Position numbers and translations under genes: made by a program. The notes beneath the pieces were generated by a model. It worked only from the letters and a program-made list of their open reading frames with translations, was not told the DNA's origin and searched no databases. Below are positions 35,986-52,223 of a stretch of 64,000 nt of DNA, piece after piece (the stretch's first letter is position 1; each line of letters opens with the position of its first letter). This DNA is from an uncultured Bacteroidales bacterium (GTDB taxonomy: Bacteria > Bacteroidota > Bacteroidia > Bacteroidales > CAYVNP01). The stretch is from contig CAYVNP010000002.1 in assembly GCA_964452905.1 (NCBI GenBank), positions 53,357 to 117,356 of the forward strand, given 5' to 3'.

Positions 35986-36025
35986 TTAAAAAAAGCCCTT
36001 CGGTTAATAAGCGAAGGGCTTTTCT
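35986..36025. terminator. Bidirectional hairpin terminator between the giant gene and the hdr/metFV operon
   Basis: 11-bp stem AAAGCCCTTCG (35992-36002) / CGAAGGGCTTT (36012-36022). An A-run lies on the left and a T-run on the right, so it can serve both convergent transcription units. Confidence 0.75.
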
Positions 36026-36211: not shown

Positions 36212-36880
36212 TTAAATCCTGTGATCTTCACGGATTATAGTCCTACATCCACCATCAATACTGGTTTCCCAGTTTTTCAAGGAATGTATTTCTTTCAACC
36301 GGTCAAGCTGTCCGATATTTTTTAAACGTGTATAAATCAACTGCCAGGCACAAGGTTGTTTTGCATCAATCTCACAACGATCTTCACGTGAGCCGCCACA
36401 AGGACCGTTCAGCATATGTTTTGCACAACGTGTCACAGGGCATATCCCTCCAAAGTCAGCAAGTACACAAGCTCCGCATTGCGCACACTTTTCTGTCCAC
36501 ACACCGCGTTCTTCGAGAATACCGAGGAAAGCGGTATCCAGACCTGCATATACCGGTTTATCTGGATATCGTTCAGCAATGGCTTGCACACCGGCGCCAC
36601 AGCCAAGAGAGAGTACTGCATCATGATTCTTGATGGCTTCAGCTGCGCCTTCAATGAAAACATTATCACATTGTCTTTCAATTGTGAACTCATTCACGTT
36701 TATAGGATTTCCTGCTTTTTTAGAAGCGATTCTCAAAGCGGAAGAAATAATGGATACTTCGCGCTCACCACCGGCAAGGCATACAGTAACACAAGTACCG
36801 CAACCAAGAACAAGTATTCTTTTATGCGTTTTAATGATATCGTATAATTCAGGTATTTTTTTTCTTTCAGCAACTATCAT
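36212..36880 (-). CDS. metV: MetV-like protein (methylene-THF reductase C-terminal-domain/zinc-ribbon family)
   Basis: Cys-rich blocks LGCGTCVTVC and CAQCGACVLADFGGICPVTRCAKHMLNGPCGGS are typical of the small MetV partner of acetogen-type MetF. Its start overlaps the upstream stop as ATGA (36877-36880). Confidence 0.8.
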   Translation of the reverse strand: MIVAERKKIPELYDIIKTHKRILVLGCGTCVTVCLAGGEREVSIISSALRIASKKAGNPINVNEFTIERQCDNVFIEGAAEAIKNHDAVLSLGCGAGVQAIAERYPDKPVYAGLDTAFLGILEERGVWTEKCAQCGACVLADFGGICPVTRCAKHMLNGPCGGSREDRCEIDAKQPCAWQLIYTRLKNIGQLDRLKEIHSLKNWETSIDGGCRTIIREDHRI

Positions 36881-37326
36881 TTGATGGTCTCCTCTTTTAT
36901 TTTAATATTATTTTTTTTTATTGGATTAGTTCCTATTTTTTTAATGGTATCAACCATTTCACGAATTACATTCACTAAATTATTTGCCATGGCCGCTGAA
37001 TTGTTGATCATGCGGAGACGATCTTTTTCCAAACCCATTTCTTCGAGCAGGTCACGGGTTGCATTCACACGTTTTTTTGCAAAAAGATTTCCGTCAATAA
37101 AATGACAGCCCCCTTCAAGACAGCCGGCAACAAGAACTCCATCAGCTCCGTTTTCAAACGCGCGTAAATAATAATCAACTTCCAACCGTCCTGTACAGGG
37201 TGTACGGATAATGCGAACATTCGGAGGATATTGCAATCGCATGGAACCGGACAGATCCGCTGCTGCATACGCACAGTAATGACAACAGAAGGCAACGATC
37301 TTCGGTTCGAAATTTTTATCAGTCAT
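36877..37326 (-). CDS. mvhD: MvhD/FlpD-like hydrogenase iron-sulfur (delta) subunit
   Basis: PKIVAFCCHYCAYAAAD, RTPCTGRLE and GVLVAGCLEGGCHFIDGN form the typical MvhD Cys pattern. Confidence 0.85.
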   Translation of the reverse strand: MTDKNFEPKIVAFCCHYCAYAAADLSGSMRLQYPPNVRIIRTPCTGRLEVDYYLRAFENGADGVLVAGCLEGGCHFIDGNLFAKKRVNATRDLLEEMGLEKDRLRMINNSAAMANNLVNVIREMVDTIKKIGTNPIKKNNIKIKEETIK

Positions 37327-37329
37327 AGT

Positions 37330-40300
37330 TTAAATAGTTACTGTTTCTTCTATATTAAAAAGTTTATCAATCATGATCTTAAAATGATCGGAACGGAAAT
37401 GACTAACCTGTATAGCTCTGGCAGGACACTCAGAAGCGCATATACCACAACCCATACATTTAGCGCTTGCCACTTCGGCTTTGTGATCGTAGTTACAAAA
37501 TGGTGCACCATATGGACATGCTTTAACACAAGTCATACATGAAATACATTTATCCTGATTCACTGTAGATACCTGCACTCCTACTTCCAGATGTGTTTTG
37601 GAAAGTATGGTTGCTGCACGTGCCGCTGCTGCTCTACCTTGCGAAATATTTTCATCAATCATTTTCGGTGAATGAGCCAACCCGCATAAAAACAATCCTT
37701 CGGTAGCAAAGTCAACAGGTCGCAATTTCATATGTGCTTCAACATAATACCCATTAGCATTCAAAGGCACTTTCAACATATTCGAAATTTTCGCATTATC
37801 TTCATTCGCATCAATACCGGTGCTAAGAACAAGATGATCTGTTTCAATGATGATCGGTTCAGGAAAATCAGGACTATTCACTGTCACAGAACTTAACACG
37901 CCATCCATATCTGATACCACAGGTGGTTGATCTTTTTCATACCTGATAAAAACAACCCCTGCCTCACGTGCTTGTTTATAATATAATTCACGGAAACCGT
38001 ATGTCCTGATATCTCTGTTAAGAATATAAACAGTTGCATCCGGATTCAACGCTTTAATTTTTAACGCATTATTTACGGCCATCGAACAACAAATCCTGCT
38101 GCAATAGGGCTTTTCATCATTCCTTGATCCAACGCATTGAATCATGACATAGGATTGATCTTTTTTTGCAGGTTTATTTTCTGACAATTTTCTTTCCAGT
38201 TCAACCTGTGTCATTATATTTTTAACCGTACCATATGAAAAATCTTTTGCCACTGCCGGCTTACCACCTGTAGCAATGATGATAGCTCCACAACTGAATT
38301 CCTTCTTTTTATTTTCCTTTAATGTTTTTAAAGTAAAATGACCGATATGCCCGGAAACACCTTCCAAAGTCGTATTCAGGTGTACATCAATATTCCTGTG
38401 AGTTTTTACTTTTTCAATTAATTCAGTTTTAAATACAGACAGATCTGATGTTTCAAGAGTGCTGTCAATAAGATCAAGATTTCCGCCAAGTTTATCTGAT
38501 TTTTCAATCAGTTCAACATCAAACCCTTGTTCTGCGAGTGAAAGTGCAGCAGTCATCCCGCTAACACCACCACCAATCACAATCCCATTTTGTAAAATAG
38601 GGATCCGTTCTCCTTCAAGAGGTGATAAATTCCGTGCACGGGCAATAGACATCTTAACCAATTCGGTCGCTTTCTCCGTTGCCTTTTCAGGTTCAGAAGA
38701 ATGCACCCATGAACACTGGTCCCTGATATTAGCAAGATCAAACAAATAGGGATTCAATCCTGCTTCACGCAATGTATCACGGAAAATAGGTTCGTGGGTT
38801 CGCGGTGTACAGGATGCAACCACTACGCGATTCAGACGATGTTGTATGATCTGATCTTTAATATTTGACAAACTCGCATCCGCACAGGTGTACATGGTAT
38901 GGGATGCCAGAACAACACCTTTTTCATTTCGGATACTTTCAGTAACCTTTTCCACATCAACAGTTCCGGCAATATTAATCCCACAATGACAAACAAATAC
39001 ACCTACCCGTGCTTCTTCATCACTCACATCATGTTCATTCGGATATTCTTTGGAAGTGATCATTGTATTTTTAACGGAAGCTAAAAGCTCCATAGACATT
39101 GAGGCAGCTGCACTTGCCTGCATCACTGTTTCAGGAATATCCTTTGGTTCCTGAAAAGCGCCACCAACATAAATACCTTCACGGGAAGTTGCGAGTGGAT
39201 TCAATCTATTGGTATCAGCAAAACCAAAACGATTTGTTTGTATGCCTAATTTTTTAATGCTATCCGTAACGGAAATTTTAGGATCCAATCCAACAGCCAA
39301 TACAACCAAATCAAATTCCTGTTCCATATAACGACCGCCCGGTTTAATAAATCCCACTTTCAAATCATTGGATGAAGGCATTTGAATGATACGCGACGGA
39401 ATGCTTTTAATAAATTCAATATTATCCATGGCTCTCGCCCGTTCGTAATATTGATCAAAATCTTTACCATGTGCACGAATATCCATATTAAATATTGTCC
39501 CCTGCATTCCATGTAAATGTTCGGATGCGATCATTGCCTGTTTGGTAGTAGCCATACAGCAGATCGAAGAGCAATAATCATTGCCGCATTTTGAATCACG
39601 TGAACCAACACATTGTATCCATGCTATGCGTTTAGCTTCTTTTCCATCATCTCTCCTCACCACATGCCCACTGTAAGGACCGGCAGCAGATAGCATACGT
39701 TCAAACTGAACACTGGTCATTACATTCTTATATCTGTTAAATCCATATTCCCCTTTTTCTTCTGCATCAAATTCATCAAAACCGGGTGTAAGAATAACAG
39801 ACCCAACTTCCAATTCAACAAATTGTTCTTTCATGGAATGATCAATTGCTTTCTTTTCGCATGCAGTAACACATTCCATACACTCCGAACATTGAGCACA
39901 GTTCATACAACGTTCGGCTTCAGCAATGGCATCTTCTAATGAAAAAGGAAATTCTATTTCATTAAAATTATTGACACGTTCGTTTGCAGTCAATTCGTTG
40001 GCTTTAGCTCTTTTTTTCTTCTCAACATTTTTTACTGAAGGAAGTAATTCTTCCGGAACTGGATTGATGCTTGATTCAAATCGGTCTGCAAGCATATCTT
40101 CCCCTTTCAGGTATTTCTCAATGGATTCGGCTGCTCGTTTCCCTGCTGCAACCGCTTCAATTACGCTGGATGGACCGGAGGCATTATCACCACCAGCAAA
40201 TATATTTTTATCTGATGTTTGCAACGTTATTTTATCCGCTTTAAAACAACCTCTTTCAATATCAATTCCTAAATGTTTTGTCAGTTCAACATCCACCATC

Positions 40301-41793
40301 TGACCAATTGCAACGATGATCTGATCAGCATCAATTTTTGTTAAATTGTTTGAATCATATTTTGGATTGAATCTTCCATTTTCATCAAAAACAGAAACAC
40401 ATTGTTTCAGTTCAATACCTTTAACAGAGCCATTTCCAAGAATTTTATTCGGACCCCATCCATTACGAATTGTTATGCCTTCTTTTTGTGTAGCTTCAAT
40501 TTCATCATCGTAAGCAGGCATTTCATTGAATTTTTCGAGTGAGATCAATTCCACTTTTTTCGCACCGAGACGGAGAGCAGTTCTCGCAACATCAACAGCC
40601 ACATTGCCTCCACCGATCACAATCACATTTCCATTTACCTTTGGTTTGTTTGTTTCTTCAACGGACTGTCGTAAAAACTCAACACCATAAAGTACTCCTG
40701 TCTTATCTTCGCCCTCAATACCAAGCTTTCTGCTAACATGAGCGCCTGCACTGACAAATAAAATATCATTTTCTTTTTTAAGATCATCAATCGTTTTATC
40801 CTTACCAATTGCATAATTATATAAGAAAGTAACACCTTTGCGACGTATCAGTTCAACTTCAAAATCAAGAATTTCTTTTGGCAATCTGTATTGTGGTATT
40901 CCATAAAGCAGCATCCCGCCAGCTGACGGGCGCGATTCATATACAGTAACAGCAAACCCTTTCTCTGCCAGATCACCAGCAGCAGTAAGACCTGCAGGAC
41001 CGGCTCCAATAATTGCAATTTTTTTGGCATTGGAAGCAGGTATTTTTTCTTCAGGTAATTTTAATTCGCCTGATTTATAAAGTTTCATTTCTTCATCCGA
41101 TGCAAAACGTTTTAGTTGACGAATCGCTACTGAAGAATCAACTTTATCACGTGTACAAACTGTTTCACAGGGAGCAGGACAAACACGTCCACAAATGGCT
41201 GACAGCGGATTCCGTTCCCTGATCAGATTCACCGCTTTAACATATTCACCTTTTTTAATTAATTGAATATATCCCTGTATATTGATGTTTGCAGGACATG
41301 TAACCTTGCAGGGTGCATGACCATTCTTGATTAGGTTAGGCATATTGGGAATCGCCTGTGCATAATATTTCTGTACAACTTTTCGTTTTCCTAGATCACG
41401 GTTAAATTTATCATCAATTTCAACAGGACAAGCTTTAGTGCAATCCCCGCAATCATTACAAATTTTTTCATTGATGTAGCGCGGAGATTTTTTAATTGTG
41501 ACTTTAAAATTACCAGGATCTCCTTCAATTTTTTCAACTTCTGAAAGGGTATGAATTTCAACATTCAGATTTCGTGCACATTCAACAAGCTTTGGAGAGA
41601 TAACACATATGGCACAGTCGCCTGTGGGAAAGGTTTTATCGAGGTGCGACATCATACCGCCGATAGTAGCCGAACGGTTGACCAGATGAACTTTATACCC
41701 TGAATTGGCAAGATCAATTGATGCCTGAACACCGGCAATACCACCACCCTGAACCAAAACAGCGCCTGTCATTTTTTTCTTATTCGAACTCAT
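37330..41793 (-). CDS. hdrA: 1487-aa HdrA-like fusion: HdrA copy 1 carrying an inserted GltD/NfnB-like NAD(P)H module, followed by a second HdrA-like copy
   Basis: aa 1-150 carry VQGGGIAGVQASIDLA and KTFPTGDCAICV plus the CNDCGDCTKACP cluster. aa ~155-565 are GltD-like (CPAPCETVC, IAIIGAGPAGLTAAGDL, GGMLLYGIPQYRLPK, VIGGGNVAVD, FAGGD). aa ~625-900 are the HdrA remainder (CMNCAQCSECMECVTAC, IQCVGSRD...YCSSICC). aa ~928-1487 form a second HdrA (VFVCHCGINIAG, VIGGGVSGMTAAL, IQCVGSRNDEKPYCSRICC, C-terminal 2x CxxCxxCxxxCP). Confidence 0.85.
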   Translation of the reverse strand: MSSNKKKMTGAVLVQGGGIAGVQASIDLANSGYKVHLVNRSATIGGMMSHLDKTFPTGDCAICVISPKLVECARNLNVEIHTLSEVEKIEGDPGNFKVTIKKSPRYINEKICNDCGDCTKACPVEIDDKFNRDLGKRKVVQKYYAQAIPNMPNLIKNGHAPCKVTCPANINIQGYIQLIKKGEYVKAVNLIRERNPLSAICGRVCPAPCETVCTRDKVDSSVAIRQLKRFASDEEMKLYKSGELKLPEEKIPASNAKKIAIIGAGPAGLTAAGDLAEKGFAVTVYESRPSAGGMLLYGIPQYRLPKEILDFEVELIRRKGVTFLYNYAIGKDKTIDDLKKENDILFVSAGAHVSRKLGIEGEDKTGVLYGVEFLRQSVEETNKPKVNGNVIVIGGGNVAVDVARTALRLGAKKVELISLEKFNEMPAYDDEIEATQKEGITIRNGWGPNKILGNGSVKGIELKQCVSVFDENGRFNPKYDSNNLTKIDADQIIVAIGQMVDVELTKHLGIDIERGCFKADKITLQTSDKNIFAGGDNASGPSSVIEAVAAGKRAAESIEKYLKGEDMLADRFESSINPVPEELLPSVKNVEKKKRAKANELTANERVNNFNEIEFPFSLEDAIAEAERCMNCAQCSECMECVTACEKKAIDHSMKEQFVELEVGSVILTPGFDEFDAEEKGEYGFNRYKNVMTSVQFERMLSAAGPYSGHVVRRDDGKEAKRIAWIQCVGSRDSKCGNDYCSSICCMATTKQAMIASEHLHGMQGTIFNMDIRAHGKDFDQYYERARAMDNIEFIKSIPSRIIQMPSSNDLKVGFIKPGGRYMEQEFDLVVLAVGLDPKISVTDSIKKLGIQTNRFGFADTNRLNPLATSREGIYVGGAFQEPKDIPETVMQASAAASMSMELLASVKNTMITSKEYPNEHDVSDEEARVGVFVCHCGINIAGTVDVEKVTESIRNEKGVVLASHTMYTCADASLSNIKDQIIQHRLNRVVVASCTPRTHEPIFRDTLREAGLNPYLFDLANIRDQCSWVHSSEPEKATEKATELVKMSIARARNLSPLEGERIPILQNGIVIGGGVSGMTAALSLAEQGFDVELIEKSDKLGGNLDLIDSTLETSDLSVFKTELIEKVKTHRNIDVHLNTTLEGVSGHIGHFTLKTLKENKKKEFSCGAIIIATGGKPAVAKDFSYGTVKNIMTQVELERKLSENKPAKKDQSYVMIQCVGSRNDEKPYCSRICCSMAVNNALKIKALNPDATVYILNRDIRTYGFRELYYKQAREAGVVFIRYEKDQPPVVSDMDGVLSSVTVNSPDFPEPIIIETDHLVLSTGIDANEDNAKISNMLKVPLNANGYYVEAHMKLRPVDFATEGLFLCGLAHSPKMIDENISQGRAAAARAATILSKTHLEVGVQVSTVNQDKCISCMTCVKACPYGAPFCNYDHKAEVASAKCMGCGICASECPARAIQVSHFRSDHFKIMIDKLFNIEETVTI

Positions 41794-41811
41794 AACTATT
41801 TTAAGCTTAAA

Positions 41812-42684
41812 TTAAACAGTCTTTTTAACAAAATCAATGATAGGTTTTGGAGAGATCACACATTTATCCATACCTAATTTTTCTGGAGATATGCCGAGAC
41901 ATAAACCTAACAACTGCGTGATATATACAATCGGTAATTGATGCGCAGTTCCTTTGACCTTATTGATATCACTCTGACGCATATCGAGATTTATCTGGCA
42001 CATCGGGCAGGCAACTGCAATGCATTGCGCTCCGGACTCTTCAGCCATATCCATGATTGAATTGGAAAGTTCAACAACAATATCCGTTCTCGAAAGCGCG
42101 AATCCACCACCGCAGCATTCTGTTTTATGAGGCCAGTCGAGACTTTCACCACCCATGATGGTAACCAGACTATCCATGATGGTTGGATTTTCAGGATTAT
42201 CAAAGTTCGTTACATCTGCCGGACGTACCAATAAACAACCATAGTAATTAGCTACTTTCAGCCCATCCAACGTATGCGTAAAAGATTCATGTAATTTTTT
42301 GATACCGATTTTTTTGATCAACACTTCAACAAAATGAAGTACATTCACGGAGCCGTCATAATCTTCACCCAATGCATCAGCTACTTCTTTACGGATTGCA
42401 GGATTCGTTCGTATTTCATGATTAGCCACTTTCATCCGATTATAGCAGGCAGCACAAAAAACGACCATATCCTGTCCTGTTTTTTTCACCATCAGCAAAT
42501 TAGCTGCAGGTAAAGCAATAGAAAGCAACCGGTCAGTATGGTGTGCCGGTGTTGAACCACAGCAAGTCCATCCTTTCGGTTCAATCAACTCGATGCCAAG
42601 CGCTTTTGCAACCTCAACTGTGGACATGTGCTGATCCTGAGCGGTTGATTCGGCTGAACATCCCGGGAAATATGCGTATTTCAT
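41812..42684 (-). CDS. hdrB: HdrB-like heterodisulfide reductase subunit B (two CCG domains)
   Basis: MKYAYFPGCS with CCG motifs WTCCGS and TECCGGG. The start is taken at ATG 42684. The ORF-track start at 42690 is a TTG. Confidence 0.9.
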   Translation of the reverse strand: MKYAYFPGCSAESTAQDQHMSTVEVAKALGIELIEPKGWTCCGSTPAHHTDRLLSIALPAANLLMVKKTGQDMVVFCAACYNRMKVANHEIRTNPAIRKEVADALGEDYDGSVNVLHFVEVLIKKIGIKKLHESFTHTLDGLKVANYYGCLLVRPADVTNFDNPENPTIMDSLVTIMGGESLDWPHKTECCGGGFALSRTDIVVELSNSIMDMAEESGAQCIAVACPMCQINLDMRQSDINKVKGTAHQLPIVYITQLLGLCLGISPEKLGMDKCVISPKPIIDFVKKTV

Positions 42685-42686
42685 AA

Positions 42687-43247
42687 TCAATTTACTTTGT
42701 GATTAACTTTATCAAATATTCTTTTTATATATGTTTTATCTGCTTTCATTGTGGGAATCAAAGCAATCTTTCCTTTTTTCAACATCATCGGAAATTTATC
42801 CGTATCCTGTAGATACGATGAAGTACCAACTTTATAAGCTGCAATCATTCCCAAATCATATGTTCGACCGAACATCTGTACTGTTTTCAAAAATGATTTA
42901 TTGAATAATGGAACATTTCCTTTTTGTGGCTTGGCTTTTTTCAACAAAGCCATTTTACGAAGTGCATCCATCACTGCAGCCATGTCAATCTTCATCGGAC
43001 AACGTGAATAACAAGTTTCGCAGGATGCACACATCCAGATCAGATCAGCATTGAAAATGGTATCATGGGTATTGAATTGTATTCTTCGAATAACTTCGGC
43101 CGGATGAATCTTTGCAAGAGCAGTTACAGGGCATCCGTTGGAGCATTTTTTACATTGTAAACAAGCGCTGACATCCACTCCCGAAATTTTCTTAACAGTG
43201 TTAAGCAATGTTTCAACTTGCCTGTTTTTTCTAACAATTATCGACAT
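42687..43247 (-). CDS. hdrC: HdrC-like 4Fe-4S dicluster subunit
   Basis: Two ferredoxin motifs, CLQCKKCSNGCP and CASCETCYSRCP. The size and the position before hdrB fit HdrC. Confidence 0.85.
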   Translation of the reverse strand: MSIIVRKNRQVETLLNTVKKISGVDVSACLQCKKCSNGCPVTALAKIHPAEVIRRIQFNTHDTIFNADLIWMCASCETCYSRCPMKIDMAAVMDALRKMALLKKAKPQKGNVPLFNKSFLKTVQMFGRTYDLGMIAAYKVGTSSYLQDTDKFPMMLKKGKIALIPTMKADKTYIKRIFDKVNHKVN

Positions 43248-43264
43248 ATGTTATAAATATAGAA

Positions 43265-45928: not shown

Positions 45929-45936
45929 GCAAACAA

Positions 45937-47502
45937 TTACTTTTTTGAAATGTCTAAATGGATCAATAAATCATGACGTCCGCGTAAATCTTTAATACTT
46001 TTCAAACCCAGACGTTTAAGTATATCTTTTATACCTATAGCCCAAGCATTATACATGTTGATCAATCGCTGTGTACCCCAATCAAGATTCATTTGGGTAA
46101 TCAATCCCTGATCCGTTGTTGCAATACCTCTTGGGCAGCCGCGGCCACTCGAACAACGACTGCAGCGCAAACAACTGAGAGCGATCATTTCGGCAGTGCC
46201 AATGACAACACCGTCAGCGCCTAAAGCAATTGCTTTAGCTATATCAAAATAATTACGAATGCCGCCGCTGGCAATGAGTGTAACCGTATCACGCGCTCCT
46301 TCGGTAACAAGGAAATTATGCACTTTCGGAATTGCGTAATCAATCGGCATTGCTATATTCTTCTTGGCAATGTCCGGTGCTGCACCAGTACCGCCATATC
46401 CACCGTCAATATGAATAATGTGTGTACCTGCATAATAACTTCCCACTGCAACCATATCTACATCCGTGGGTGTAGAAACCTTTGTAGAAACCAATGTTCT
46501 GGGATTAATATGTTTGATCCAGTCAATATGTTTCATATGATCTTCAATTGAATATACACTATGAAACGGGAAAGGAGAAAACAACGGAATACCTTGAACA
46601 GCTTCACGCATTTTAGAAACAGCAGACGTATTTTTGGAACCAAGCAAGTGCCCGCCCAGACCGGGTTTAGCGCCTTGTGCATATTTAAATTCAACGATCG
46701 GAACACGTTGAATAGTTTCTTCACGCACACCGAAAAGACCTGTGGCTACCTGTGTTATCATATGATCATCATAAGGTCTCAATCGTTCCATATAACCGCC
46801 TTCACCTGAACAGGAAAAAGTATTCCATGCCGTAGCTGCACGAACTTTTGAAAGCTGTGTTACATTGCTGATGGAGCCGAACGACATTCCCCCACCATAC
46901 CAGGGTACATCAATTTTAATATTTGGTCTGCCGTCATTTCTTTTATTCAGATCCAAGCTGATATCAATTTCATCATCTGAAACTTTTTGTGGATTATCCG
47001 GAAATACAAAACGGATGCGGTCAAAACCACCACCTGAATTTCCGGTTTCATATTCAAAATCATAATCATCAGGAACGGTATTACCTGTTTCAGCCATGTA
47101 CCATGTTGCAAGCATCATATCGGAAGGCCAGCGGTTATCACCCAGTGCTTCCATCATCGGGTTCTTAACCATACGCAATGCACCGGACGGACATTTTGTT
47201 ACACAAAAACATTCTGTCTTTTCACATATAGCGCCATTGCATTTATAACTCAAGGGGGAAGCAAAAAGTTTATATCCCGGCTTCATCACATGAACTCCTT
47301 TCGGGCAGGTCTTCACACAATTACCGCAGAGTGTGCATTTTTCCTCATCACGGTAGATCATGTATTTTGCAATTTCATTGCGATACCTTGACGGAGCTTC
47401 AATAATCGTACGTTCAACAATAGTTTGCGGAACACGTGTCTTCATTGTGTTCGCAGGAAGAATACCTTCCAGATTCATTTTATTTTCCAAAGATTGGCTC
47501 AT
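45937..47502 (-). CDS. Glutamate-synthase FMN-binding domain protein (GltB domain 2) with an N-terminal ferredoxin-like region
   Basis: CTLCGNCVKTCP, then canonical GltB FMN-domain blocks GGGMSFGSIS, SGEGG, KYAQGAKPGLGGHL, IDGGYGGTGAAP, ASGGIRN, and the cluster region LSCLRCSRCSSGRGCPRGIATTD. The start is uncertain (ATG 47502 or 47478). The ORF-track start at 47586 would overlap the upstream gene by 107 nt. Confidence 0.85.
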   Translation of the reverse strand: MSQSLENKMNLEGILPANTMKTRVPQTIVERTIIEAPSRYRNEIAKYMIYRDEEKCTLCGNCVKTCPKGVHVMKPGYKLFASPLSYKCNGAICEKTECFCVTKCPSGALRMVKNPMMEALGDNRWPSDMMLATWYMAETGNTVPDDYDFEYETGNSGGGFDRIRFVFPDNPQKVSDDEIDISLDLNKRNDGRPNIKIDVPWYGGGMSFGSISNVTQLSKVRAATAWNTFSCSGEGGYMERLRPYDDHMITQVATGLFGVREETIQRVPIVEFKYAQGAKPGLGGHLLGSKNTSAVSKMREAVQGIPLFSPFPFHSVYSIEDHMKHIDWIKHINPRTLVSTKVSTPTDVDMVAVGSYYAGTHIIHIDGGYGGTGAAPDIAKKNIAMPIDYAIPKVHNFLVTEGARDTVTLIASGGIRNYFDIAKAIALGADGVVIGTAEMIALSCLRCSRCSSGRGCPRGIATTDQGLITQMNLDWGTQRLINMYNAWAIGIKDILKRLGLKSIKDLRGRHDLLIHLDISKK

Positions 47503-48883
47503 ATATTTCTTTCTCAAGTTCGTCATTAAACATCGCACGTCCAACATCACCACGTAAACGCCTTGCTTCACGCATTCCCATAGCACCCATTAATTCTACC
47601 ATTTGAAGATGCCATGAACTCATCAGATTAACCATGCGTCCGACAGCATATTTGAAATCAAGCGGTTTGTCAAGCATTACAGGACAATAATCACCCGGTT
47701 TACATGTACCACACAATTTACATTCAACAGCGATCATCATGGGGATGTCAACAGACACAAGGTCAGTACCACAAATAATCGCTTTGGCAACATGTTCAGA
47801 TAAACCAATCCCACCGCCAGCAATCAACGTGATAAGATCTCGTTTTTCATTCCTGATCAGGTTCCCATGTATTTCACGAATTATATCTTTTATAAAACGT
47901 GGATTGTTTGTACCTATCTCATTCCCATTTTTATCAGCAACAATATGGATGACTTCAATATTATTGATACGTGAAAGTATATCAACACGATTAGGTCCTT
48001 CTGAATTCAACGAAACTCTCACAGAAATTATCAAATCAGGATGAGCTTTTTTTAAATAATTTATTTTTTGTTCAACATTGACACCGTCAGGAATTTCAAC
48101 CATTCTGGTTTTTTTCAGTGTTTCTTTATCAATTTCTGGTCCATCCGGATTGAGATAAAAAATTATACTATTCAAATAATTTTCTTTATGATCAACTTTT
48201 AATTCCTTCCATTTTTTTGAATCAATGATTGCCATTAATCCAGTTTGTTTAGCGGTTTCGAGAATATATGGTTCTAAAAATGGAAGTAAGTGTTCCTGTG
48301 ACTGCATATCAAAAATTACCGGAAAAGGAAGTGAAATTAAAGGAGGCAGAACAGTATCCAATGTATTATTCTTAATTGTCAGGTAAGATGGTTTACGACC
48401 GATATCCACTGAAGTACTAATATATTCACGACCATGAATACCATCCCTTGTAGGACGAACTATCTCTGACATATCCGTCCACATGGAATCAAATCCATGA
48501 CCGGAAAATTTACCTCTATACCCTGCGCCTGAGACCGGCACTTTGCCTGTTTCAGCTTCAAGCCATGTTGTTCTAAAAATGGGCGGAGTCCAGTATTCAT
48601 TTCCAAGATTAAGGTATTCGGAATTAACTGACATCGTTAAAAGATTTTTAGTACAATTCTGAACACAGGAAAAACAGCCCATACATTCATAATATAATGT
48701 ATGAACACTGTCTAAATCTCGAATAAATGAATTCTCTTCTCTGTAACGGTCGTATATACAAGATTTTTTAACACAGTTGTGACAACGTGCACAATCCTCA
48801 CGCCAATCAACAACACCGTATTTGCCTATTTGCGGCAATCTGGATTTAACCTGGGAAGATTTAATATGATATTTTTCGGGCAT
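47480..48883 (-). CDS. Divergent paralog of the GltB FMN-domain protein with an N-terminal 2x[4Fe-4S]-like motif
   Basis: CARCHNCVKKSC and CMGCFSCVQNC lie at the N-terminus. The C-terminus LIAGGGIGLSEHVAKAIICGTDLVSVD...CKLCGTCKPGDYCP aligns by eye with the ASGGIRN...CLRCSRC...CP end of the neighbouring ORF. The GGMSFGS, GEGG, QGAKPGxGG and DGGxGGTGA blocks are absent. Confidence 0.6.
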   Translation of the reverse strand: MPEKYHIKSSQVKSRLPQIGKYGVVDWREDCARCHNCVKKSCIYDRYREENSFIRDLDSVHTLYYECMGCFSCVQNCTKNLLTMSVNSEYLNLGNEYWTPPIFRTTWLEAETGKVPVSGAGYRGKFSGHGFDSMWTDMSEIVRPTRDGIHGREYISTSVDIGRKPSYLTIKNNTLDTVLPPLISLPFPVIFDMQSQEHLLPFLEPYILETAKQTGLMAIIDSKKWKELKVDHKENYLNSIIFYLNPDGPEIDKETLKKTRMVEIPDGVNVEQKINYLKKAHPDLIISVRVSLNSEGPNRVDILSRINNIEVIHIVADKNGNEIGTNNPRFIKDIIREIHGNLIRNEKRDLITLIAGGGIGLSEHVAKAIICGTDLVSVDIPMMIAVECKLCGTCKPGDYCPVMLDKPLDFKYAVGRMVNLMSSWHLQMVELMGAMGMREARRLRGDVGRAMFNDELEKEIYEPIFGK

Positions 48884-48894
48884 AAATATTTTTT

Positions 48895-49788
48895 TTATAA
48901 ACCAGCTTCAGTAATAATTTCTTTGATCAATTCTTCTTTTCCACCGGAAATAATATGTATTCCGCTGACACCTTTCATTCCTTTTATTTTTTTTATGGTA
49001 TCTGCACAGATAGCTATTCCGGCTTTCTTCTGATCTTCTAAGTTTCCTGCATCTTTAATTCGTTGAATGTGGGATTTGGGAATATAAAAATCTGTATGTT
49101 TATCCAGCAAACTAATTGCTTCTTCATAACTTTCAATCGGATAAATACCTGCTATAATTGCTGCTTTCTTGGTGATACCTTCTTTATTCGCCGCATCGAG
49201 CCATTCCTGAAAATCAGTTGTATTAAAAACAGCTTGTGTTTGAATAAACTTAGCTCCCGCATTCACTTTTTTCATCAGGCGGATAATATTCAATTCTAAT
49301 GGGCGCAGATATGGATTGGCTACAGCTCCCACCAACATTGAAAAATCACCTTTGATCTCCATACCATTTAACATCTTTTTTTCCAAATTCATCTGATTAA
49401 TAATTTGAATCAGCTGGATGGAATCAATATCATACACATGTGCAGACTGTGGAGAATCAGTAAGTGTCTGATGATATCCGGACAAACAGAGGATATTCTT
49501 GATTCCCAAAGAAGCAGCACCAAGCACATCCGACTGTAAAGCGATCCGGTTTCTGTCGCGTGTAACCAATTGATAAATTGGCTCAATACCTTCCTGTTTC
49601 AGTTGAACAGATGATGCCAAACTTGATTTAACAGGTCCGTATGGATTATCCGCTGTATTCACAGCTACCATCCCATTATTTTTTAATTCTGGCAATGAAG
49701 CAATCTCCATATCTGTTCCGGGTAAATATTCCGCAGTAATTATAAAATCTCCTGCCTCAATGCGTTTTGCTAATAAACTCGTATTCAT
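48895..49788 (-). CDS. metF: Methylenetetrahydrofolate reductase, acetogen-type MetF
   Basis: 297 aa with MTHFR-family blocks FIITAEY, LVTRDRNR, ILCLSGY and AKFIQTQAVF. It lacks the long C-terminal extension of eukaryotic-type enzymes. Confidence 0.85.
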   Translation of the reverse strand: MNTSLLAKRIEAGDFIITAEYLPGTDMEIASLPELKNNGMVAVNTADNPYGPVKSSLASSVQLKQEGIEPIYQLVTRDRNRIALQSDVLGAASLGIKNILCLSGYHQTLTDSPQSAHVYDIDSIQLIQIINQMNLEKKMLNGMEIKGDFSMLVGAVANPYLRPLELNIIRLMKKVNAGAKFIQTQAVFNTTDFQEWLDAANKEGITKKAAIIAGIYPIESYEEAISLLDKHTDFYIPKSHIQRIKDAGNLEDQKKAGIAICADTIKKIKGMKGVSGIHIISGGKEELIKEIITEAGL

Positions 49789-49806
49789 TTTATTTTAATA
49801 TTATTT

Positions 49807-50223
49807 CTAAATTTTTACATTGACCAATTGAACATCATTTTTTAACACCTCAGCAAACTGATTGATTTCATGAAGAATCATTTCAGTTTTCATATCTTTT
49901 AATTCGATGAATCGGATTCGTTGATTCCCTATACCTGTTTCATCCAGCAAATGATTCACAGCTTCAACGCGCTTTTTTGCACGTAAATTCCCTTGAAGAA
50001 ATTTACATTCACCAATTTTGCATGTGATTAGAATCACGCCATCTGATCCATTTTCTACTGACTTAAGAAGATATAACAAATTAAGTTTTCCTGAACAGGG
50101 CAGACTGACCGGATGAAAATCAATGTCCTTTGATATCTTAGCACTGCACTGGGAAATTTCAAGATTATCAATCGAATTGGAACAATAAAACAAAGAAATC
50201 TTAATCGGTTGACTCATATTCAA
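49807..50223 (-). CDS. MvhD/FlpD-like protein, divergent paralog with a reduced Cys set
   Basis: It aligns by eye with the 36877..37326 product (SLPCSGKLN vs RTPCTGRLE, and VILITCKIGECKFLQGN vs VLVAGCLEGGCHFIDGN). Its N-terminal motif is LFYCSNS instead of AFCCHYCAY. Confidence 0.7.
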   Translation of the reverse strand: MNMSQPIKISLFYCSNSIDNLEISQCSAKISKDIDFHPVSLPCSGKLNLLYLLKSVENGSDGVILITCKIGECKFLQGNLRAKKRVEAVNHLLDETGIGNQRIRFIELKDMKTEMILHEINQFAEVLKNDVQLVNVKI

Positions 50224-51324
50224 ATTATTAAAATTTAAGTAAAATTCTTAAAAAAATTAGGTGTTTTACGTAATATTAGGACATAAAAAAACTCCTTTAC
50301 AGGAGAATTACTTTAAACTACTCAAAACGTATTCAATTTTAGAATTCAAAATAATTGAAACAAAAATAAATATTTTTTTTAACCCTGAATAATTTTTATG
50401 AATTTTTTATTAAACATTAAAATTAATAGATTTATAGAGAATTCTTATAAATTATTTTAATAACACCTAAAAATACATTATGCATTTTAATAATAGATAA
50501 ATCTTACCACCATAAAATCCCTACAAAAAATATTAATTTTTATTACAACTTGTTATTATTTTACTGATTAAATAAAACAAAAAATTATGTTTGTTAAAAA
50601 AAATGAAATAAATAATTAAAAATGAAATAAAAATCTTTTTTAACTATTTAAATTTATCAGAATTATAAAAAATTGTTTTATTAAATTCAAACAAAAATGA
50701 ATAATCAAATTCATATTATTATAAAAAATAATTTTGTTAATAAAATTTAATAAAGAATTTATTTTTTTTTTTTTTTTAAATAAATTTTATATTTTTACGT
50801 TTTATGATATATGTAAATATTCAAATATGTCATGAAGGAATTAAGTACTTGAACTTATTCTATAAAAACAAGTTGATTGATAAACAAAAAATACAAAATC
50901 AATTTTAAATATGTATCTGAATGGATATGAGTTAAAAGAGAAATATTAGAAAAATATGATTACTGATAATAAAACCACTAATATGAATATGTGATTCCGC
51001 ATTATCTTTAAACTGAGCAATGTCGGTATAACTGAATAATTATTTGTGAAAAAAATCTTGAAACAACAAGTTCCTACATATTTATGATAAAAAAACACTT
51101 CATCATTTGTTCAAACATCAACATGACTATTAATGTTTCAATCCTTTTATCAGAAATTATGAATCCGTTCAAAATTATCTTTTAGAAACAGTCTAAAACA
51201 TTCACCGGAACAATTGTCTGAAGTTTGATAAATAAAACCTCACCAGAATATTCATCAATAACACTAAACGGAGTGGTTAATAATAAATCACAGATCAAAA
51301 TTCATTTAAAGCAAAACTTAATAA

Positions 51325-52206: not shown

Positions 52207-52223
52207 TTTCTAAAATTGAATAT

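What the first reader, a model, noticed from the sequence alone, without database searches (positions are those of the whole stretch)
36212..50223. Ten-gene operon joining MetFV-HdrABC-MvhD with a split glutamate-synthase module: candidate new electron-bifurcating complex
Seen in the sequence: ten minus-strand ORFs are packed with gaps of 18 nt or less, including one ATGA stop/start overlap at 36877-36880. The order is MvhD-like, MetF, degenerate GltB-FMN paralog, GltB-FMN domain, GATase-II+GXGXG, HdrC, HdrB, 1487-aa HdrA/GltD fusion, MvhD, MetV. A 1.7 kb ORF-free AT-rich region precedes the operon and a strong hairpin region follows it. Established knowledge: MetF-MetV-HdrABC-MvhD forms the methylene-THF reductase complex described for Moorella thermoacetica. 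GltB domains encoded as separate ORFs are the archaeal-type glutamate synthase. GltD is the NAD(P)H/FAD/[4Fe-4S] electron-input subunit of GOGAT and a homolog of NfnB. Inference: the GOGAT large-subunit domains sit between metF and hdrCBA, while the only GltD-like module is embedded inside HdrA. This suggests one flavin-based bifurcating or confurcating machine in which NAD(P)H, ferredoxin, methylene-THF reduction and glutamine-dependent 2-oxoglutarate amination are coupled. I do not recall a characterised complex with this composition, and the MetFV-Hdr type is unexpected in a Bacteroidota-like background.
Basis: partly seen in the sequence, partly recalled or inferred. Interest (0 to 1): 0.88.

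Follow-up and report, generated by a model that had tools for sequence, protein, structure and literature searches.

The report
Glutamate synthase wired to Hdr and MetFV
A tightly packed ten-gene operon, conserved in hundreds of uncultured anaerobic bacteria from about a dozen phyla, joins the ammonia-assimilating enzyme glutamate synthase to a heterodisulfide-reductase-type electron-splitting module and a folate-reductase-like enzyme, and I found no paper that describes or tests this combination.

Summary
Ten minus-strand genes (36212-50223) lie 18 nt or less apart or overlap, and every domain call was confirmed.

The arrangement is not chance. A genome scan for the 467-aa paralog found at least 596 species-genomes. 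In all 77 judgeable loci of the 80 closest, the order FlpD-MetF-paralog-FMN domain-GATase/GXGXG-HdrC-HdrB-HdrA/GltD recurs. These loci span Bacteroidales, Planctomycetota, Verrucomicrobiota, Desulfobacterota, Chloroflexota, Spirochaetota and others.

The three Glt genes are an invariant unit that rebuilds a GltB large subunit. Glutaminase and 2-oxoglutarate residues are conserved. Relatives sit beside glnA, amt, PII, glnD, nrpR and gdh, so the module is most likely a real glutamate synthase. It has no GltD of its own. Its electron-input partner is modular: FlpD+MetVF, a GlcD-like dehydrogenase (sometimes fused), NfnAB-like proteins, or, as here, a tandem HdrA carrying a GltD insert.

Three corrections apply:
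- The "degenerate" paralog is highly conserved.
- The cluster is common in Bacteroidales.
- MetF here lacks the folate-binding Asp.

Physical coupling is strongly supported. Electron bifurcation remains inference. No description was found in the literature searched. I rate it a new variant of Hdr-type complexes, of high interest.

The parts
49807..50223 (-). FlpD1: MvhD-like [2Fe-2S] adaptor, 138 aa (TTG start; alternative ATG at 50217). It is the proposed wire between HdrA and the glutamate-synthase core.
   Evidence: Pfam FlpD 2.5e-23. Aligns to MvhD chains of Hdr complexes 7bkb_F and 5odc_D. Four Cys (C14, C43, C68, C73) are conserved in 55 homologues. In variant loci an FlpD/MvhD gene directly precedes the Glt trio even when MetF is absent.
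48895..49788 (-). MetF-like flavoprotein (MTHFR fold), 297 aa, with an altered folate site.
   Evidence: Pfam MTHFR 4.6e-30. The catalytic Glu (E20, equivalent to E. coli E28) and TRDRNR are invariant. The 'RGD' Asp (E. coli D120) is replaced by Y; across 75 homologues the position is Y46/F11/T11 and never among the top residues as D. MetF of the simpler FlpD-MetV-MetF-Glt operons keeps 'SGDHQ'.
47480..48883 (-). GluSp: conserved paralog of the GltB FMN barrel, 467 aa. It has an N-terminal 2x[4Fe-4S] domain, an invariant motif at aa 116-153 and a C-terminal 4-Cys motif. It is the proposed central-domain-like, electron-entry subunit.
   Evidence: 25% identical over its full length to the FMN-domain protein. 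The AF2 model (pTM 0.83) best matches the GltS alpha chain, 2vdc/1ea0, at about 9e-10. The motif PVSGAGY..WTDMSEIVRPTRDGIHGRE is invariant in 19 diverse members. About 8000 clusters at 90% identity and 224 clusters at 50% identity with E<=1e-30. Fusions exist to GlcD-like dehydrogenases and to GluS.
45937..47502 (-). GluS: glutamate-synthase FMN/2-oxoglutarate domain with an N-terminal 2x[4Fe-4S] ferredoxin domain, 521 aa from the ATG at 47502.
   Evidence: Pfam Glu_synthase 1.5e-84. Aligns to A. brasilense GltB 857-1169, E 7e-48. KYAQGAKPGLGGHLLG is invariant: K279 matches K972, R299 matches R992, and H285 replaces Q978. The Cys motif C444-x2-C-x2-C-x5-C456 has four Cys where GltB has three.
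43265..45928 (-). GATase(Ntn)-GXGXG fusion, 887 aa: a glutaminase domain with a 33-residue propeptide (nucleophile Cys34), a linker of about 170 aa, and a C-terminal beta-helix domain.
   Evidence: Pfam GATase_6 and GXGXG. The following are conserved at 98% or more in 57 homologues: EGG|CG, HNRGNGKGGGIA, QRYPTRG, VHNGDFANY and TDTE. These match the Cys1, Arg73, Asn98-Gly99 and Asp123 positions of GlmS (my mapping). The GXGXG part is closest to FwdC in the PDB.
42687..43247 (-). HdrC-like 2x[4Fe-4S] protein, 186 aa.
   Evidence: NCBIfam CoB_CoM_SS_C 1.3e-17. Two CxxCxxCxxxCP motifs are conserved.
41812..42690 (-). HdrB-like protein with two CCG domains, 292 aa.
   Evidence: Pfam CCG, two stretches, 1.2e-23. 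NCBIfam HdrB 2.4e-60. The Cys of both CCG motifs are conserved in 51 homologues.
37330..41793 (-). HdrL: tandem HdrA, 1487 aa. Unit 1 is a TrxR-FAD domain with the insert. It is followed by the HdrA N-domain, a second and divergent TrxR-FAD domain, and a C-terminal 2x[4Fe-4S] domain.
   Evidence: Maps on M. wolfeii HdrA 5odc_A in four pieces: aa 12-151 to 146-285, aa 632-852 to 290-511, aa 926-1104 to 2-180, and aa 1339-1479 to 507-650. Pfam and NCBIfam hits.
39901..41340 (-). GltD/NfnB-like NAD(P)H-FAD-2x[4Fe-4S] module (about aa 152-631 of HdrL), inserted inside HdrA's 'inserted ferredoxin domain'.
   Evidence: Fer4_20 plus Pyr_redox_2. PRK12771 2e-164 and gltA/GltD models. PDB hits NfnA 9n5u, 9bov, 8oh5_C, NfnB 4ylf_B and GltD 6s6s_G. 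The second Rossmann motif is GGGNVA (GxGxxA). At the same position the Geobacter-type locus L066 carries NuoE/NuoF/NuoG-N-like modules instead.
36877..37326 (-). MvhD, the canonical [2Fe-2S] adaptor, 149 aa.
   Evidence: Pfam FlpD 7.5e-49, full length. NCBIfam VhuD 1.1e-46.
36212..36880 (-). MetV, the Fe-S/Zn partner of MetF, 222 aa. Its start overlaps the mvhD stop (ATGA).
   Evidence: Pfam DUF5981/MTHFR_C 2.5e-36. It carries the NGPCGG signature named in PMC8515935.
35991..36023 (.). Bidirectional intrinsic-terminator hairpin between metV and the convergent 3275-aa gene.
   Evidence: 16-nt arms, 94% complementary, flanked by A- and T-runs.
50224..51909 (.). AT-rich (15-27% GC) spacer upstream of the operon, presumably holding the promoter. 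It is not conserved in relatives.
   Evidence: Composition and sequence. No Rfam match and no sigma-54 consensus site. In L001 the equivalent spacer is only about 330 nt.

Best explanation
Proposal: the ten genes encode one multi-subunit iron-sulfur flavoprotein assembly whose main job is nitrogen assimilation.

The catalytic core (shown by sequence):
- Three genes together supply the GltB amidotransferase, FMN and GXGXG domains: the GATase-GXGXG fusion, the FMN/2-oxoglutarate barrel GluS, and the paralog GluSp.
- That GluSp takes the place of the GltB central domain is inference.
- The core has no GltD reductase subunit of its own.

The wiring (inferred):
- The core receives electrons through GluSp's ferredoxin domain and the MvhD-like adaptor FlpD1.
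- FlpD1 connects it to a tandem HdrA protein (HdrL), which carries a GltD/NfnB-type NAD(P)H module inserted into its ferredoxin-interacting domain.
- The second adaptor, MvhD, wires the same HdrL to MetV-MetF.
- HdrBC hangs on HdrL as in methanogen Hdr.

Proposed electron flow (inferred):
- NAD(P)H enters at the GltD insert.
- The HdrA flavins distribute electrons to the strongly exergonic reductive amination of 2-oxoglutarate by glutamine-derived ammonia.
- Electrons also go to the MetF site. Its substrate would be methylene-THF if the altered folate site still binds it.
- The surplus driving force may be used to reduce ferredoxin or the HdrB substrate by flavin-based bifurcation.
For: Real operon: gaps of 18 nt or less or overlaps, and one terminator.

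Conserved as a unit:
- All 77 judgeable loci of the 80 closest carry MetF next to the Glt trio.
- 57 loci show HdrA, and 54 of these also show HdrB, in the same order. They come from about 12 phyla.
- The same ten genes occur in a rotated order in L030.
- MvhD and MetV follow HdrL wherever the contig continues: L020, L030, L052, L139, L148, L160.

The core is a glutamate synthase:
- The glutaminase Cys and the glutamine-binding motifs are invariant. The QGAKPG Lys and the Arg equivalent to R992 are also invariant.
- Neighbours in relatives include glnA, amt, PII, glnD, glnE, nrpR, gdh, carAB and a sigma-54 activator.

The electron-input module is interchangeable, so the Hdr/FlpD part is the reductase:
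- Alternative partners are GlcD-like+Fer4, which is fused to GluSp in P0152 and P0159, NfnAB-like, FlpD+MetVF, and HdrA without the insert.
- A NuoEFG-like NADH module replaces GltD at the same site in L066.

Two adaptors for two HdrA units: wherever Hdr accompanies both modules there are two FlpD/MvhD genes and a two-TrxR HdrA. The Hdr-less variant has one FlpD.

Cofactor sites are intact in 51-57 homologues (HdrL judged over its first ~1400 residues, because most loci end there): HdrB CCG cysteines, HdrC cysteines, and the FAD motifs of both HdrA units.

Established knowledge: in Mvh-Hdr, MvhD bridges the partner enzyme to HdrA (5ODC). GltD is the NADPH input of GOGAT. A GltD insert in HdrA is proposed to replace the ferredoxin site with an NAD(P)H site (PMC12054007).
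Against: - No transcript, protein or activity data exist, and every organism carrying the cluster that I saw is an uncultured MAG.
- The Glt trio also occurs without MetF or Hdr in about 25 of 59 judgeable distant loci. MetFV-HdrABC-MvhD exists without Glt genes in acetogens. The modules can therefore work separately.
- MetF here lacks the Asp that binds the pterin in E. coli MTHFR, so its substrate is uncertain.
- Bifurcation has not been demonstrated even for the closest characterised complex. In S. ovata that complex is membrane-linked (PMC9430772), and the Moorella complex has an unknown second acceptor.
- A bacterial substrate for HdrB is unknown.
- No subunit-interface prediction could be run.
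- The invariant GluSp motif is disordered in the single-chain model, so its role is unknown.
Confidence: 0.55

Rival explanations
1. Plain shared-reductase model. The complex is real but does not bifurcate. HdrL acts only as an NAD(P)H dehydrogenase and Fe-S scaffold that feeds two biosynthetic reductases (GOGAT and MetFV). No ferredoxin is reduced and no energy is conserved. HdrBC is a structural or regulatory remnant.
For: GOGAT and MTHFR are both ordinary NAD(P)H consumers. The GltD insert sits exactly where ferredoxin is thought to dock on HdrA, and PMC12054007 suggests it may block that site. Bifurcation is unproven for 6S-type MTHFR (PMC9430772). The context is nitrogen assimilation, not catabolism.
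Against: All HdrB and HdrC cluster cysteines, two HdrA FAD sites and the C-terminal ferredoxin domain of unit 2 are kept under strong selection across phyla. That is costly for a mere wire. Simple GltD or NfnAB partners exist in the same family, so the elaborate Hdr version probably adds a function.
Confidence: 0.22
2. MetFV is an electron donor rather than a second acceptor. Methyl-THF (E0' about -200 mV) is oxidised by MetF. Its electrons drive the more positive glutamine-dependent amination of 2-oxoglutarate. This pulls the otherwise unfavourable methyl-THF oxidation, for example in organisms that demethylate methoxylated or methylated compounds.
For: In the Hdr-less variant, a single FlpD plus MetV-MetF occupies the same position as substrate dehydrogenases (GlcD-like) or NfnAB in other variants. 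MetFV enzymes are routinely assayed as methyl-THF:viologen oxidoreductases (methods list of PMC9430772). By my calculation from textbook potentials the reaction is exergonic by about 20 kJ/mol. Many of the titled loci come from peat-bog and fen MAGs (SPRUCE and bog_/fen_ isolates).
Against: Nitrogen assimilation would need a stoichiometric methyl-THF supply, which is implausible for polysaccharide-degrading Bacteroidales. The window-type MetF has lost the folate-binding Asp. No methyltransferase or corrinoid genes lie in the operon. An NAD(P)H module is present anyway.
Confidence: 0.1
3. The operon holds two independent enzymes that are merely co-transcribed: a Moorella-type MetFV-HdrABC-MvhD reductase and a separate ferredoxin-dependent split GOGAT.
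For: Each module exists alone elsewhere (PMC8515935). GluS and GluSp have their own ferredoxin-like domains that could accept electrons from free ferredoxin.
Against: The genes are interleaved, not juxtaposed: metF lies at the 5' end, metV at the 3' end, and glt between metF and hdrCBA. This interleaving is conserved across about 12 phyla, with cross-phylum identities of about 55-86% for the Glt and HdrL proteins (about 35-80% across all eight proteins scored). An extra FlpD adaptor travels with the Glt trio. The number of adaptors tracks the number of HdrA units. The fusions show that GluSp is a docking subunit for reductase modules.
Confidence: 0.08
4. The Glt-like module is not a glutamate synthase. 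It would be a related amidotransferase/FMN enzyme, for example of the N-methylglutamate-synthase type, which is also built from GltB-like domains and is linked to methylene-THF metabolism. Alternatively it could be a reductive aminase for another 2-oxoacid.
For: Differences from Azospirillum/Synechocystis GltS: Q978 is H and E975 is L, and there is an extra invariant GluSp motif of unknown role. From my own knowledge, N-methylglutamate synthase MgsABC is homologous to GltB domains, and its pathway feeds methylene-THF.
Against: The neighbours are general ammonium-assimilation genes (glnA, amt, PII, glnD, glnE, nrpR, gdh). No gmaS or mgdABCD homologue was seen among the neighbour families I annotated; I did not search for them directly. 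The Lys and Arg that bind 2-oxoglutarate are kept. NCBIfam's best hit is the gltB large subunit.
Confidence: 0.05

Closest known systems
Hexaheteromeric (6S-type) methylene-THF reductase MetFV-HdrABC-MvhD of Moorella thermoacetica and Sporomusa ovata (Mock et al. 2014, as cited in PMC8515935; PMC9430772)
   Same: It has MetF, MetV (NGPCGG), HdrC, HdrB (2 CCG), an HdrA-family flavoprotein and MvhD, all encoded together.
   Different: Here metF and metV sit at opposite ends of the operon. Three glutamate-synthase genes and a second FlpD lie between them. HdrA is a tandem, two-TrxR protein with a GltD insert. MetF lacks the folate-binding Asp. The genomic context in relatives is nitrogen assimilation, not the Wood-Ljungdahl pathway.
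HdrL of Desulfobacterium autotrophicum (PMC2702500) and type III / 'A9-TRX-C' HdrA of ANME-1 and Bathyarchaeota (PMC12054007)
   Same: An HdrA with a GltD (glutamate-synthase small-subunit-like) NAD(P)H module inserted in the inserted ferredoxin domain, followed by an mvhD gene. A9-TRX-C also has a second TrxR domain.
   Different: Those proteins were found next to dsr, mvhADG or only other hdrA genes. No GltB-type or MetFV partner was reported. Here the partner genes are defined and conserved.
Bacterial NADPH-glutamate synthase GltBD (Azospirillum brasilense, PDB 1EA0/2VDC/6S6S) and archaeal-type split GltS
   Same: An Ntn glutaminase, an FMN/2-oxoglutarate barrel with the QGAKPG motif, an Fe-S cluster after the barrel, a GXGXG beta-helix, and a GltD-type NAD(P)H/FAD/2x[4Fe-4S] module.
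   Different: The domains are spread over three polypeptides in a different order (GATase fused to GXGXG). A paralog of the barrel with its own 2x[4Fe-4S] domain stands in for the central domain. The cluster motif has 4 Cys instead of 3. GltD is not a subunit but an insert in HdrA, reached through an MvhD-like protein.
MvhAGD-HdrABC of Methanothermobacter wolfeii (PDB 5ODC) and Fdh-Hdr-Fmd of Methanospirillum (7BKB)
   Same: The HdrA/B/C/MvhD architecture. HdrL aligns to 5odc_A over all HdrA domains, and FlpD1 and MvhD align to MvhD chains. From my own knowledge of 5ODC, MvhD acts as the bridge to a partner enzyme.
   Different: The partners are GOGAT and MetFV instead of hydrogenase or formate dehydrogenase. 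The HdrA homodimer is replaced by a fused, asymmetric tandem. A CoM-S-S-CoB substrate is not expected in these bacteria.
'X-type' NuoEFG-MetFV reductase predicted for Desulfobacterales/Chloroflexi (PMC8515935)
   Same: The Geobacter-type variant of this operon (L066) carries NuoE/F/G-like modules together with MetF.
   Different: In L066 the Nuo-like modules are inserted in HdrA and accompany the Glt trio.

Membership tests
Glutamate synthase (GltS/GOGAT) catalytic subunit | Ntn (class II) glutaminase with an N-terminal nucleophile Cys and glutamine-binding Arg, Asn-Gly and Asp | tested here: met
   Cys34 follows a conserved EGG propeptide junction. HNRGNGKGGGIA, QRYPTRG, VHNGDFANY and TDTE are at least 98% conserved in 57 homologues and align to GlmS 33-130.
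Glutamate synthase (GltS/GOGAT) catalytic subunit | FMN (beta/alpha)8 synthase domain with the 2-oxoglutarate-binding Lys and Arg | tested here: met
   Glu_synthase 1.5e-84. Aligns to A. brasilense GltB 857-1169. K279 and R299 are invariant, while the Q978 position is His throughout this subfamily.
Glutamate synthase (GltS/GOGAT) catalytic subunit | Fe-S cluster (3Fe-4S) ligated by three Cys after the barrel | tested here: inconclusive
   The motif is present at the aligned position but has four Cys (C444, C447, C450, C456), which suggests a [4Fe-4S] cluster. The cluster type cannot be determined from sequence.
Glutamate synthase (GltS/GOGAT) catalytic subunit | C-terminal GXGXG beta-helix domain and a central domain | tested here: inconclusive
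   GXGXG is met (Pfam 1.1e-14). A central domain in the strict sense is absent. GluSp is a barrel paralog, and only in fusion protein P0160 does its part hit Glu_syn_central weakly.
Glutamate synthase (GltS/GOGAT) catalytic subunit | Separate GltD small subunit as NAD(P)H input | tested here: not met
   There is no free gltD in the operon or in the window. The only GltD-like module is aa ~152-631 of HdrL.
Glutamate synthase (GltS/GOGAT) catalytic subunit | Role in ammonium assimilation (genomic association with GS and nitrogen regulators) | tested here: met
   glnA, amt, PII, glnD, glnE, nrpR, gdh or carA lie within 10 kb in 16 of 79 close loci and 25 of 80 distant loci. The window itself shows none of these.
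Glutamate synthase (GltS/GOGAT) catalytic subunit | Glutamine + 2-oxoglutarate + 2e- gives 2 glutamate (enzyme activity) | not testable with these tools
   This needs biochemistry.
MetFV-type methylene-THF reductase (6S type) | MetF with the MTHFR fold and the catalytic Glu (E. coli E28) | tested here: met
   Pfam MTHFR 4.6e-30. E20 is present in 74 of 75 homologues.
MetFV-type methylene-THF reductase (6S type) | Folate (pterin)-binding Asp (E. coli D120, the 'GD' motif) | tested here: not met
   The window has SGYHQ. In 75 homologues the position is Y46/F11/T11/A3/H2. MetF in the simpler variants has SGDHQ.
MetFV-type methylene-THF reductase (6S type) | MetV with the NGPCGG signature and Fe-S cysteines | tested here: met
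   DUF5981 2.5e-36. NGPCGG is present in the sequence. The signature is as defined in PMC8515935.
MetFV-type methylene-THF reductase (6S type) | metV immediately upstream of, or overlapping, metF, with hdrCBA and mvhD adjacent | tested here: inconclusive
   hdrCBA and mvhD are adjacent to metV. However, metF lies 12 kb away at the other end of the operon, next to FlpD1. The canonical metV-metF order is seen in variants B, D and E.
HdrABC-MvhD flavin-based electron-bifurcating module | HdrA with TrxR-type FAD site(s) and multiple [4Fe-4S] clusters; HdrB with two CCG domains; HdrC with 2x[4Fe-4S]; MvhD | tested here: met
HdrABC-MvhD flavin-based electron-bifurcating module | Bifurcation: coupled reduction of ferredoxin and a high-potential acceptor | not testable with these tools
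   Inference only. It is unsettled even for 6S-type MTHFR (PMC9430772).
HdrL / type III HdrA | GltD module inserted within the inserted ferredoxin domain of HdrA, with an mvhD gene downstream | tested here: met
   The insert lies between HdrA positions 285 and 290 of 5odc_A. mvhD follows after 3 nt. The definitions come from PMC2702500 and PMC12054007.

The most novel reading that the evidence does not exclude
This would be an electron-bifurcating (energy-recycling) glutamate synthase. NAD(P)H enters through the GltD insert. The large free-energy drop of glutamine-dependent 2-oxoglutarate amination, and perhaps of the MetF reaction, is used by the HdrA flavins to reduce ferredoxin or an HdrB-bound disulfide. 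Energy-starved anaerobes in about a dozen phyla would then recover low-potential reducing power from nitrogen assimilation. The tandem HdrA with two different MvhD-type adaptors would be the first asymmetric Hdr core serving two different acceptor enzymes.
Probability: 0.3. Interest if true: 0.9.

Novelty: new variant of a known kind. Interest (0 to 1): 0.78.

Why it matters
- Glutamate synthase is the gateway of ammonium into biomass. Its known electron donors are NAD(P)H via GltD, ferredoxin and F420. An Hdr/MvhD-wired form would be a further class.
- If it bifurcates, it would be the first case where a core biosynthetic reaction drives ferredoxin reduction.
- The operon is not a curiosity. 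It occurs in at least 596 species-level genomes and about 8000 protein clusters. Among the loci fetched, many are from peat-bog and fen MAGs, and they include Bacteroidales, Planctomycetota, Verrucomicrobiota, Syntrophales and Dehalococcoidia.
- It gives defined partner enzymes to the GltD-inserted tandem HdrA proteins (HdrL, type III), whose function has been open since 2009.
- It offers a tractable system for asking what HdrBC and MvhD do in bacteria.
- It also flags a MetF clade that has lost the folate-binding Asp.

Tried and rejected
- Regulatory RNA upstream: Rfam at gathering score and at E<=1 on 50150-52300 found nothing relevant.
- Sigma-54 promoter, suggested by sigma-54 activators next to relatives: no consensus site in the spacer, and the window-wide count equals chance.
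- Simple terminator scan: found nothing, but inverted-repeat search and reading the sequence showed the hairpin.
- Solved structures for MetV: none. For MetF only distant E. coli and human MTHFR were found, so there is no structural template for the MetFV-Hdr interface.
- Exact-sequence lookup of the window's MetV: not on record.
- Bertsch 2015 and Mock 2014 could not be read because they are not held. The MetF motif was therefore compared only with MetF of the variant loci and with E. coli and human MTHFR.
- Clustering of upstream neighbours: no single universally conserved flanking gene, only recurrent nitrogen-related ones.
- The idea that the 467-aa protein is a decaying pseudo-enzyme: rejected because of its extreme conservation.
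- The idea that the cluster is a Wood-Ljungdahl remnant: nothing supports it. No WL genes are in the window, which otherwise encodes polysaccharide degradation, T9SS and gliding genes.
- Composition gives no sign of recent transfer into this genome: the operon is 35-44% GC, like its flanks.
- One Pfam call failed on a frame with a stop codon and was repeated.

Full report
**Observation**

The region 36212-50223 holds ten co-directional minus-strand ORFs. Successive gaps are 18, 11, 8, 17, 18 and 3 nt. There are three overlaps: 23 nt between the two Glu_synthase genes when the homologue-supported ATG at 47502 is used, 4 nt between hdrC and hdrB, and the ATGA at 36877-36880.

In gene order these are:
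- FlpD
- MTHFR
- Fer4 plus a weak Glu_synthase match
- Fer4 plus a strong Glu_synthase match
- GATase_6 plus GXGXG
- HdrC-type 2x[4Fe-4S]
- HdrB with two CCG domains
- a 1487-aa HdrA with a GltD-type insert
- FlpD
- MetV (DUF5981, with NGPCGG)

A 1.7-kb spacer of 15-27% GC precedes the operon. A bidirectional terminator hairpin at 35991-36023 follows it. The host is a Bacteroidota organism: the rest of the window encodes T9SS-sorted proteins, GldD, TonB receptors and glycoside hydrolases.

**Is the arrangement meaningful?**

The 467-aa 'degenerate' paralog (here called GluSp) has about 8000 relatives among the 90%-identity clusters. The best 120 are 69-86% identical, and those that carry a name are Bacteroidota/Bacteroidales MAG proteins. 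At 50% clustering the family has 224 clusters with E<=1e-30.

An alignment of 19 diverse members shows an invariant motif, PVSGAGY.G.F.G.GFD.MWTDMSEIVRPTRDGIHGRE. The 80 closest loci come from:
- Bacteroidales
- Ignavibacteriota
- Planctomycetota (Sedimentisphaerales, Phycisphaerales, Pirellulales)
- Verrucomicrobiota
- Desulfobacterota (Syntrophales, Smithella, Syntrophorhabdus, Geobacter)
- Dehalococcoidia
- Spirochaetota
- Fibrobacterota
- Omnitrophota
- Sumerlaeota
- Latescibacterota
- FCPU426

I ran tblastn with the ten window proteins against these loci.
- The order FlpD-MetF-GluSp-GluS-GATase/GXGXG-HdrC-HdrB-HdrL is the same in essentially all of them. MetF is present in all 77 judgeable loci. 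HdrA is seen in 57, and 54 of these also show HdrB.
- Cross-phylum identities are about 55-86% for the Glt and HdrL proteins.
- Where contigs continue, mvhD and metV follow hdrL.
- L030 has the same ten genes in a rotated order.

The ten genes therefore behave as one inherited and transferred unit.

**What the Glt genes are**

GluS aligns to the FMN/2-oxoglutarate domain of Azospirillum GltB at E 7e-48.
- It keeps the QGAKPG Lys (K279) and the Arg equivalent to R992 (R299).
- It has His at the Q978 position.
- It has a four-Cys rather than a three-Cys cluster motif.

The 887-aa protein is a GATase-GXGXG fusion.
- Its nucleophile, Cys34, follows a conserved EGG junction.
- The motifs I map to Arg73, Asn98-Gly99 and Asp123 of GlmS are at least 98% conserved in 57 homologues.
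- An active glutaminase is therefore expected.

GluSp is a full-length paralog of GluS.
- The two are 25% identical, and both have an N-terminal 2x[4Fe-4S] domain.
- Its AF2 model (pTM 0.83) best matches the GltS alpha chain.
- It lacks the QGAKPG substrate motif.
- Its invariant motif is a low-confidence loop in the single-chain model. I read that as an interface or a gating element.

Fusion proteins exist in other lineages. These are GluSp-GluS (P0123, P0160) and a GlcD-like FAD/Fe-S dehydrogenase fused to GluSp (P0152, P0159). In P0160 the GluSp part hits the GltB central-domain model weakly. I infer that the three genes rebuild the GltB large subunit, with GluSp as the central-domain-like, electron-entry subunit.

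**Context in relatives**

A second scan, seeded with distant GluSp members, fetched 80 metagenome loci. The trio GluSp-GluS-GATase/GXGXG is always together, but its partners vary:
- FlpD-MetV-MetF-trio without Hdr. These are followed by PII, GlnD and CarAB and preceded by GlnE.
- MvhD-trio-MetV-MetF.
- MvhD-trio-HdrC-HdrB-tandem HdrA without a GltD insert-MvhD-MetV-MetF.
- GlcD-like+Fer4 upstream (21 loci), with NfnA/NfnB-like genes downstream in some.

Nitrogen-assimilation genes (glnA, amt, PII, glnD, glnE, nrpR, gdh, carA) lie within 10 kb in 16 of 79 close loci and 25 of 80 distant loci. A sigma-54 activator is found in 12 close loci.

This places the trio in ammonium assimilation. It also shows that what varies is the reductase module. 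The window's own flanks show no such genes, but a KorAB-type 2-oxoacid:ferredoxin oxidoreductase lies 3.6 kb upstream.

**HdrL**

The 1487-aa protein maps on M. wolfeii HdrA in four pieces:

| HdrL residues | HdrA residues | HdrA region |
|---|---|---|
| 12-151 | 146-285 | FAD domain and first half of the inserted ferredoxin domain |
| 632-852 | 290-511 | second half of the inserted ferredoxin domain and TrxR domain |
| 926-1104 | 2-180 | N-terminal domain and start of the FAD domain |
| 1339-1479 | 507-650 | end of the TrxR domain and C-terminal ferredoxin domain |

A divergent second TrxR-FAD domain lies between the last two pieces.

Residues ~152-631 are a GltD/NfnB-type module, with best PDB relatives NfnA 9n5u, 9bov, 8oh5_C, NfnB and GltD. 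It is inserted inside the inserted ferredoxin domain. Its second Rossmann motif is GGGNVA. In the Geobacter-type locus L066 the same site carries NuoE-, NuoF- and NuoG-N-like modules instead. This supports a pyridine nucleotide as the redox partner.

GltD-inserted HdrA is already known as HdrL (PMC2702500) and as type III HdrA. A class with an extra TrxR domain occurs in ANME-1, without known partner genes (PMC12054007).

Two FlpD/MvhD genes accompany the two-unit HdrA whenever both the Glt and Met modules are present with Hdr. The Hdr-less variant has only one. FlpD1 keeps four conserved Cys and aligns to MvhD chains.

**MetF caveat**

MetF has the MTHFR fold and the catalytic Glu. At the position of E. 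coli Asp120 (human 'RGD'), however, the window has Tyr. Across 75 cluster homologues the position is Y, F, T, A or H. MetF in the simpler variants has SGDHQ. From my own knowledge, D120 binds the pterin and stabilises the iminium intermediate. Methylene-THF reduction by this clade is therefore plausible but not secure.

**Mechanism**

- Shown: gene content, conservation of cofactor and substrate residues, modular partners, fusions and nitrogen context.
- Inferred: NAD(P)H enters at the GltD insert, passes through HdrA FAD and Fe-S centres to FlpD1, then to the GluSp/GluS clusters and to FMN, which reduces 2-iminoglutarate made from glutamine-derived ammonia.
- Inferred: a second branch runs from HdrL through MvhD and MetV to MetF, and HdrBC forms a third branch.
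- By my calculation from textbook potentials, GOGAT with NAD(P)H releases about 40 kJ/mol or more. That would be enough to co-reduce ferredoxin.
- Whether the complex bifurcates cannot be decided here. It is not settled even for the closest characterised relative (PMC9430772; PMC8515935).

The rivals are a non-bifurcating shared reductase, MetFV acting as a methyl-THF-oxidising donor, mere co-transcription, and a non-GOGAT amidotransferase. They are weighed in their own section.

**Novelty**

Nine full-text searches returned no paper that describes a GltB-type module with MetFV and/or Hdr. They combined Hdr, MvhD, MetF/MetFV, glutamate synthase, HdrL, bifurcation and taxon names. Subscription-only reviews are not covered, so prior mention cannot be excluded.

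All the parts are known families. The new elements are their combination, the FlpD-wired GOGAT, the conserved GluSp subunit and the asymmetric tandem HdrA with two adaptors. I therefore rate it a new variant of a known kind, with high interest because of its breadth and the possible link between nitrogen assimilation and energy conservation.

Noticed in passing
window 21066-21266 (+): A cobalamin riboswitch (Rfam RF00174, 94.8 bits) lies directly upstream of a TonB-dependent receptor (21357-23282) and a DUF5074 protein (23301-24377). This is probably a B12-uptake operon.
   Followed up: partly
window 26143-35970 (+): A giant 3275-aa ORF with PATR repeats, DUF2341 and a T9SS C-terminal sorting domain, convergent with the operon. 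It is a secreted or surface protein of unknown function.
   Followed up: partly
window 53855-56750 (+): A two-gene KorAB-type 2-oxoacid:ferredoxin oxidoreductase (POR/POR_N and TPP_enzyme_C) lies 3.6 kb upstream of the operon start, divergently oriented. It could make or consume 2-oxoglutarate and ferredoxin, the proposed substrates of the complex. I did not check whether this linkage recurs.
   Followed up: no
window 50224-52206: The 1.7-kb spacer is extremely AT-rich (down to 15% GC). It contains a possible 52-aa ORF (51325-51482, minus strand) and is bordered by an ArsR-family regulator gene (51910-52206, plus strand). Relatives such as L001 have only about 330 nt here, so the spacer is specific to this genome. 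Its origin is unexplained.
   Followed up: partly
window 48895-49788 (MetF residue 105) and loci L003-L082: The folate-binding Asp of MTHFR is replaced by variable Y/F/T in the whole clade of Hdr-linked MetF proteins, although the neighbouring His-Gln and the catalytic Glu stay invariant. MetF of the Hdr-less FlpD-MetV-MetF-Glt operons keeps the Asp. The consequence for substrate choice is unknown.
   Followed up: partly
L066 17375-21376 (Geobacter sp. UBA9976 MAG); also L062, L077, L081, L069, L072, L073: In these loci the GltD insert of HdrA is replaced by an insert of about 3 kb. In L066 it encodes NuoE-like, NuoF-like and NuoG-N-like modules. The reading frame changes in the middle, which means either separate genes or assembly frameshifts. 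The Fibrobacterota loci also lack separate HdrC and HdrB hits.
   Followed up: partly
L001 16274-16651: A PDDEXK_3 (nuclease-like) gene is inserted between hdrC and hdrB in a 6.2-Mb Bacteroidales MAG contig. This suggests a mobile insertion that the operon tolerates.
   Followed up: no
L107, L129, L159 and 18 further metagenome loci; proteins P0152, P0159: In these loci a GlcD-like FAD-binding dehydrogenase with a C-terminal 2x[4Fe-4S] domain precedes the same Glt trio, and in P0152 and P0159 it is fused to GluSp. This would be a hydroxyacid-dehydrogenase-linked glutamate synthase (perhaps D-2-hydroxyglutarate or D-lactate as donor). It appears to be a second undescribed variant.
   Followed up: partly
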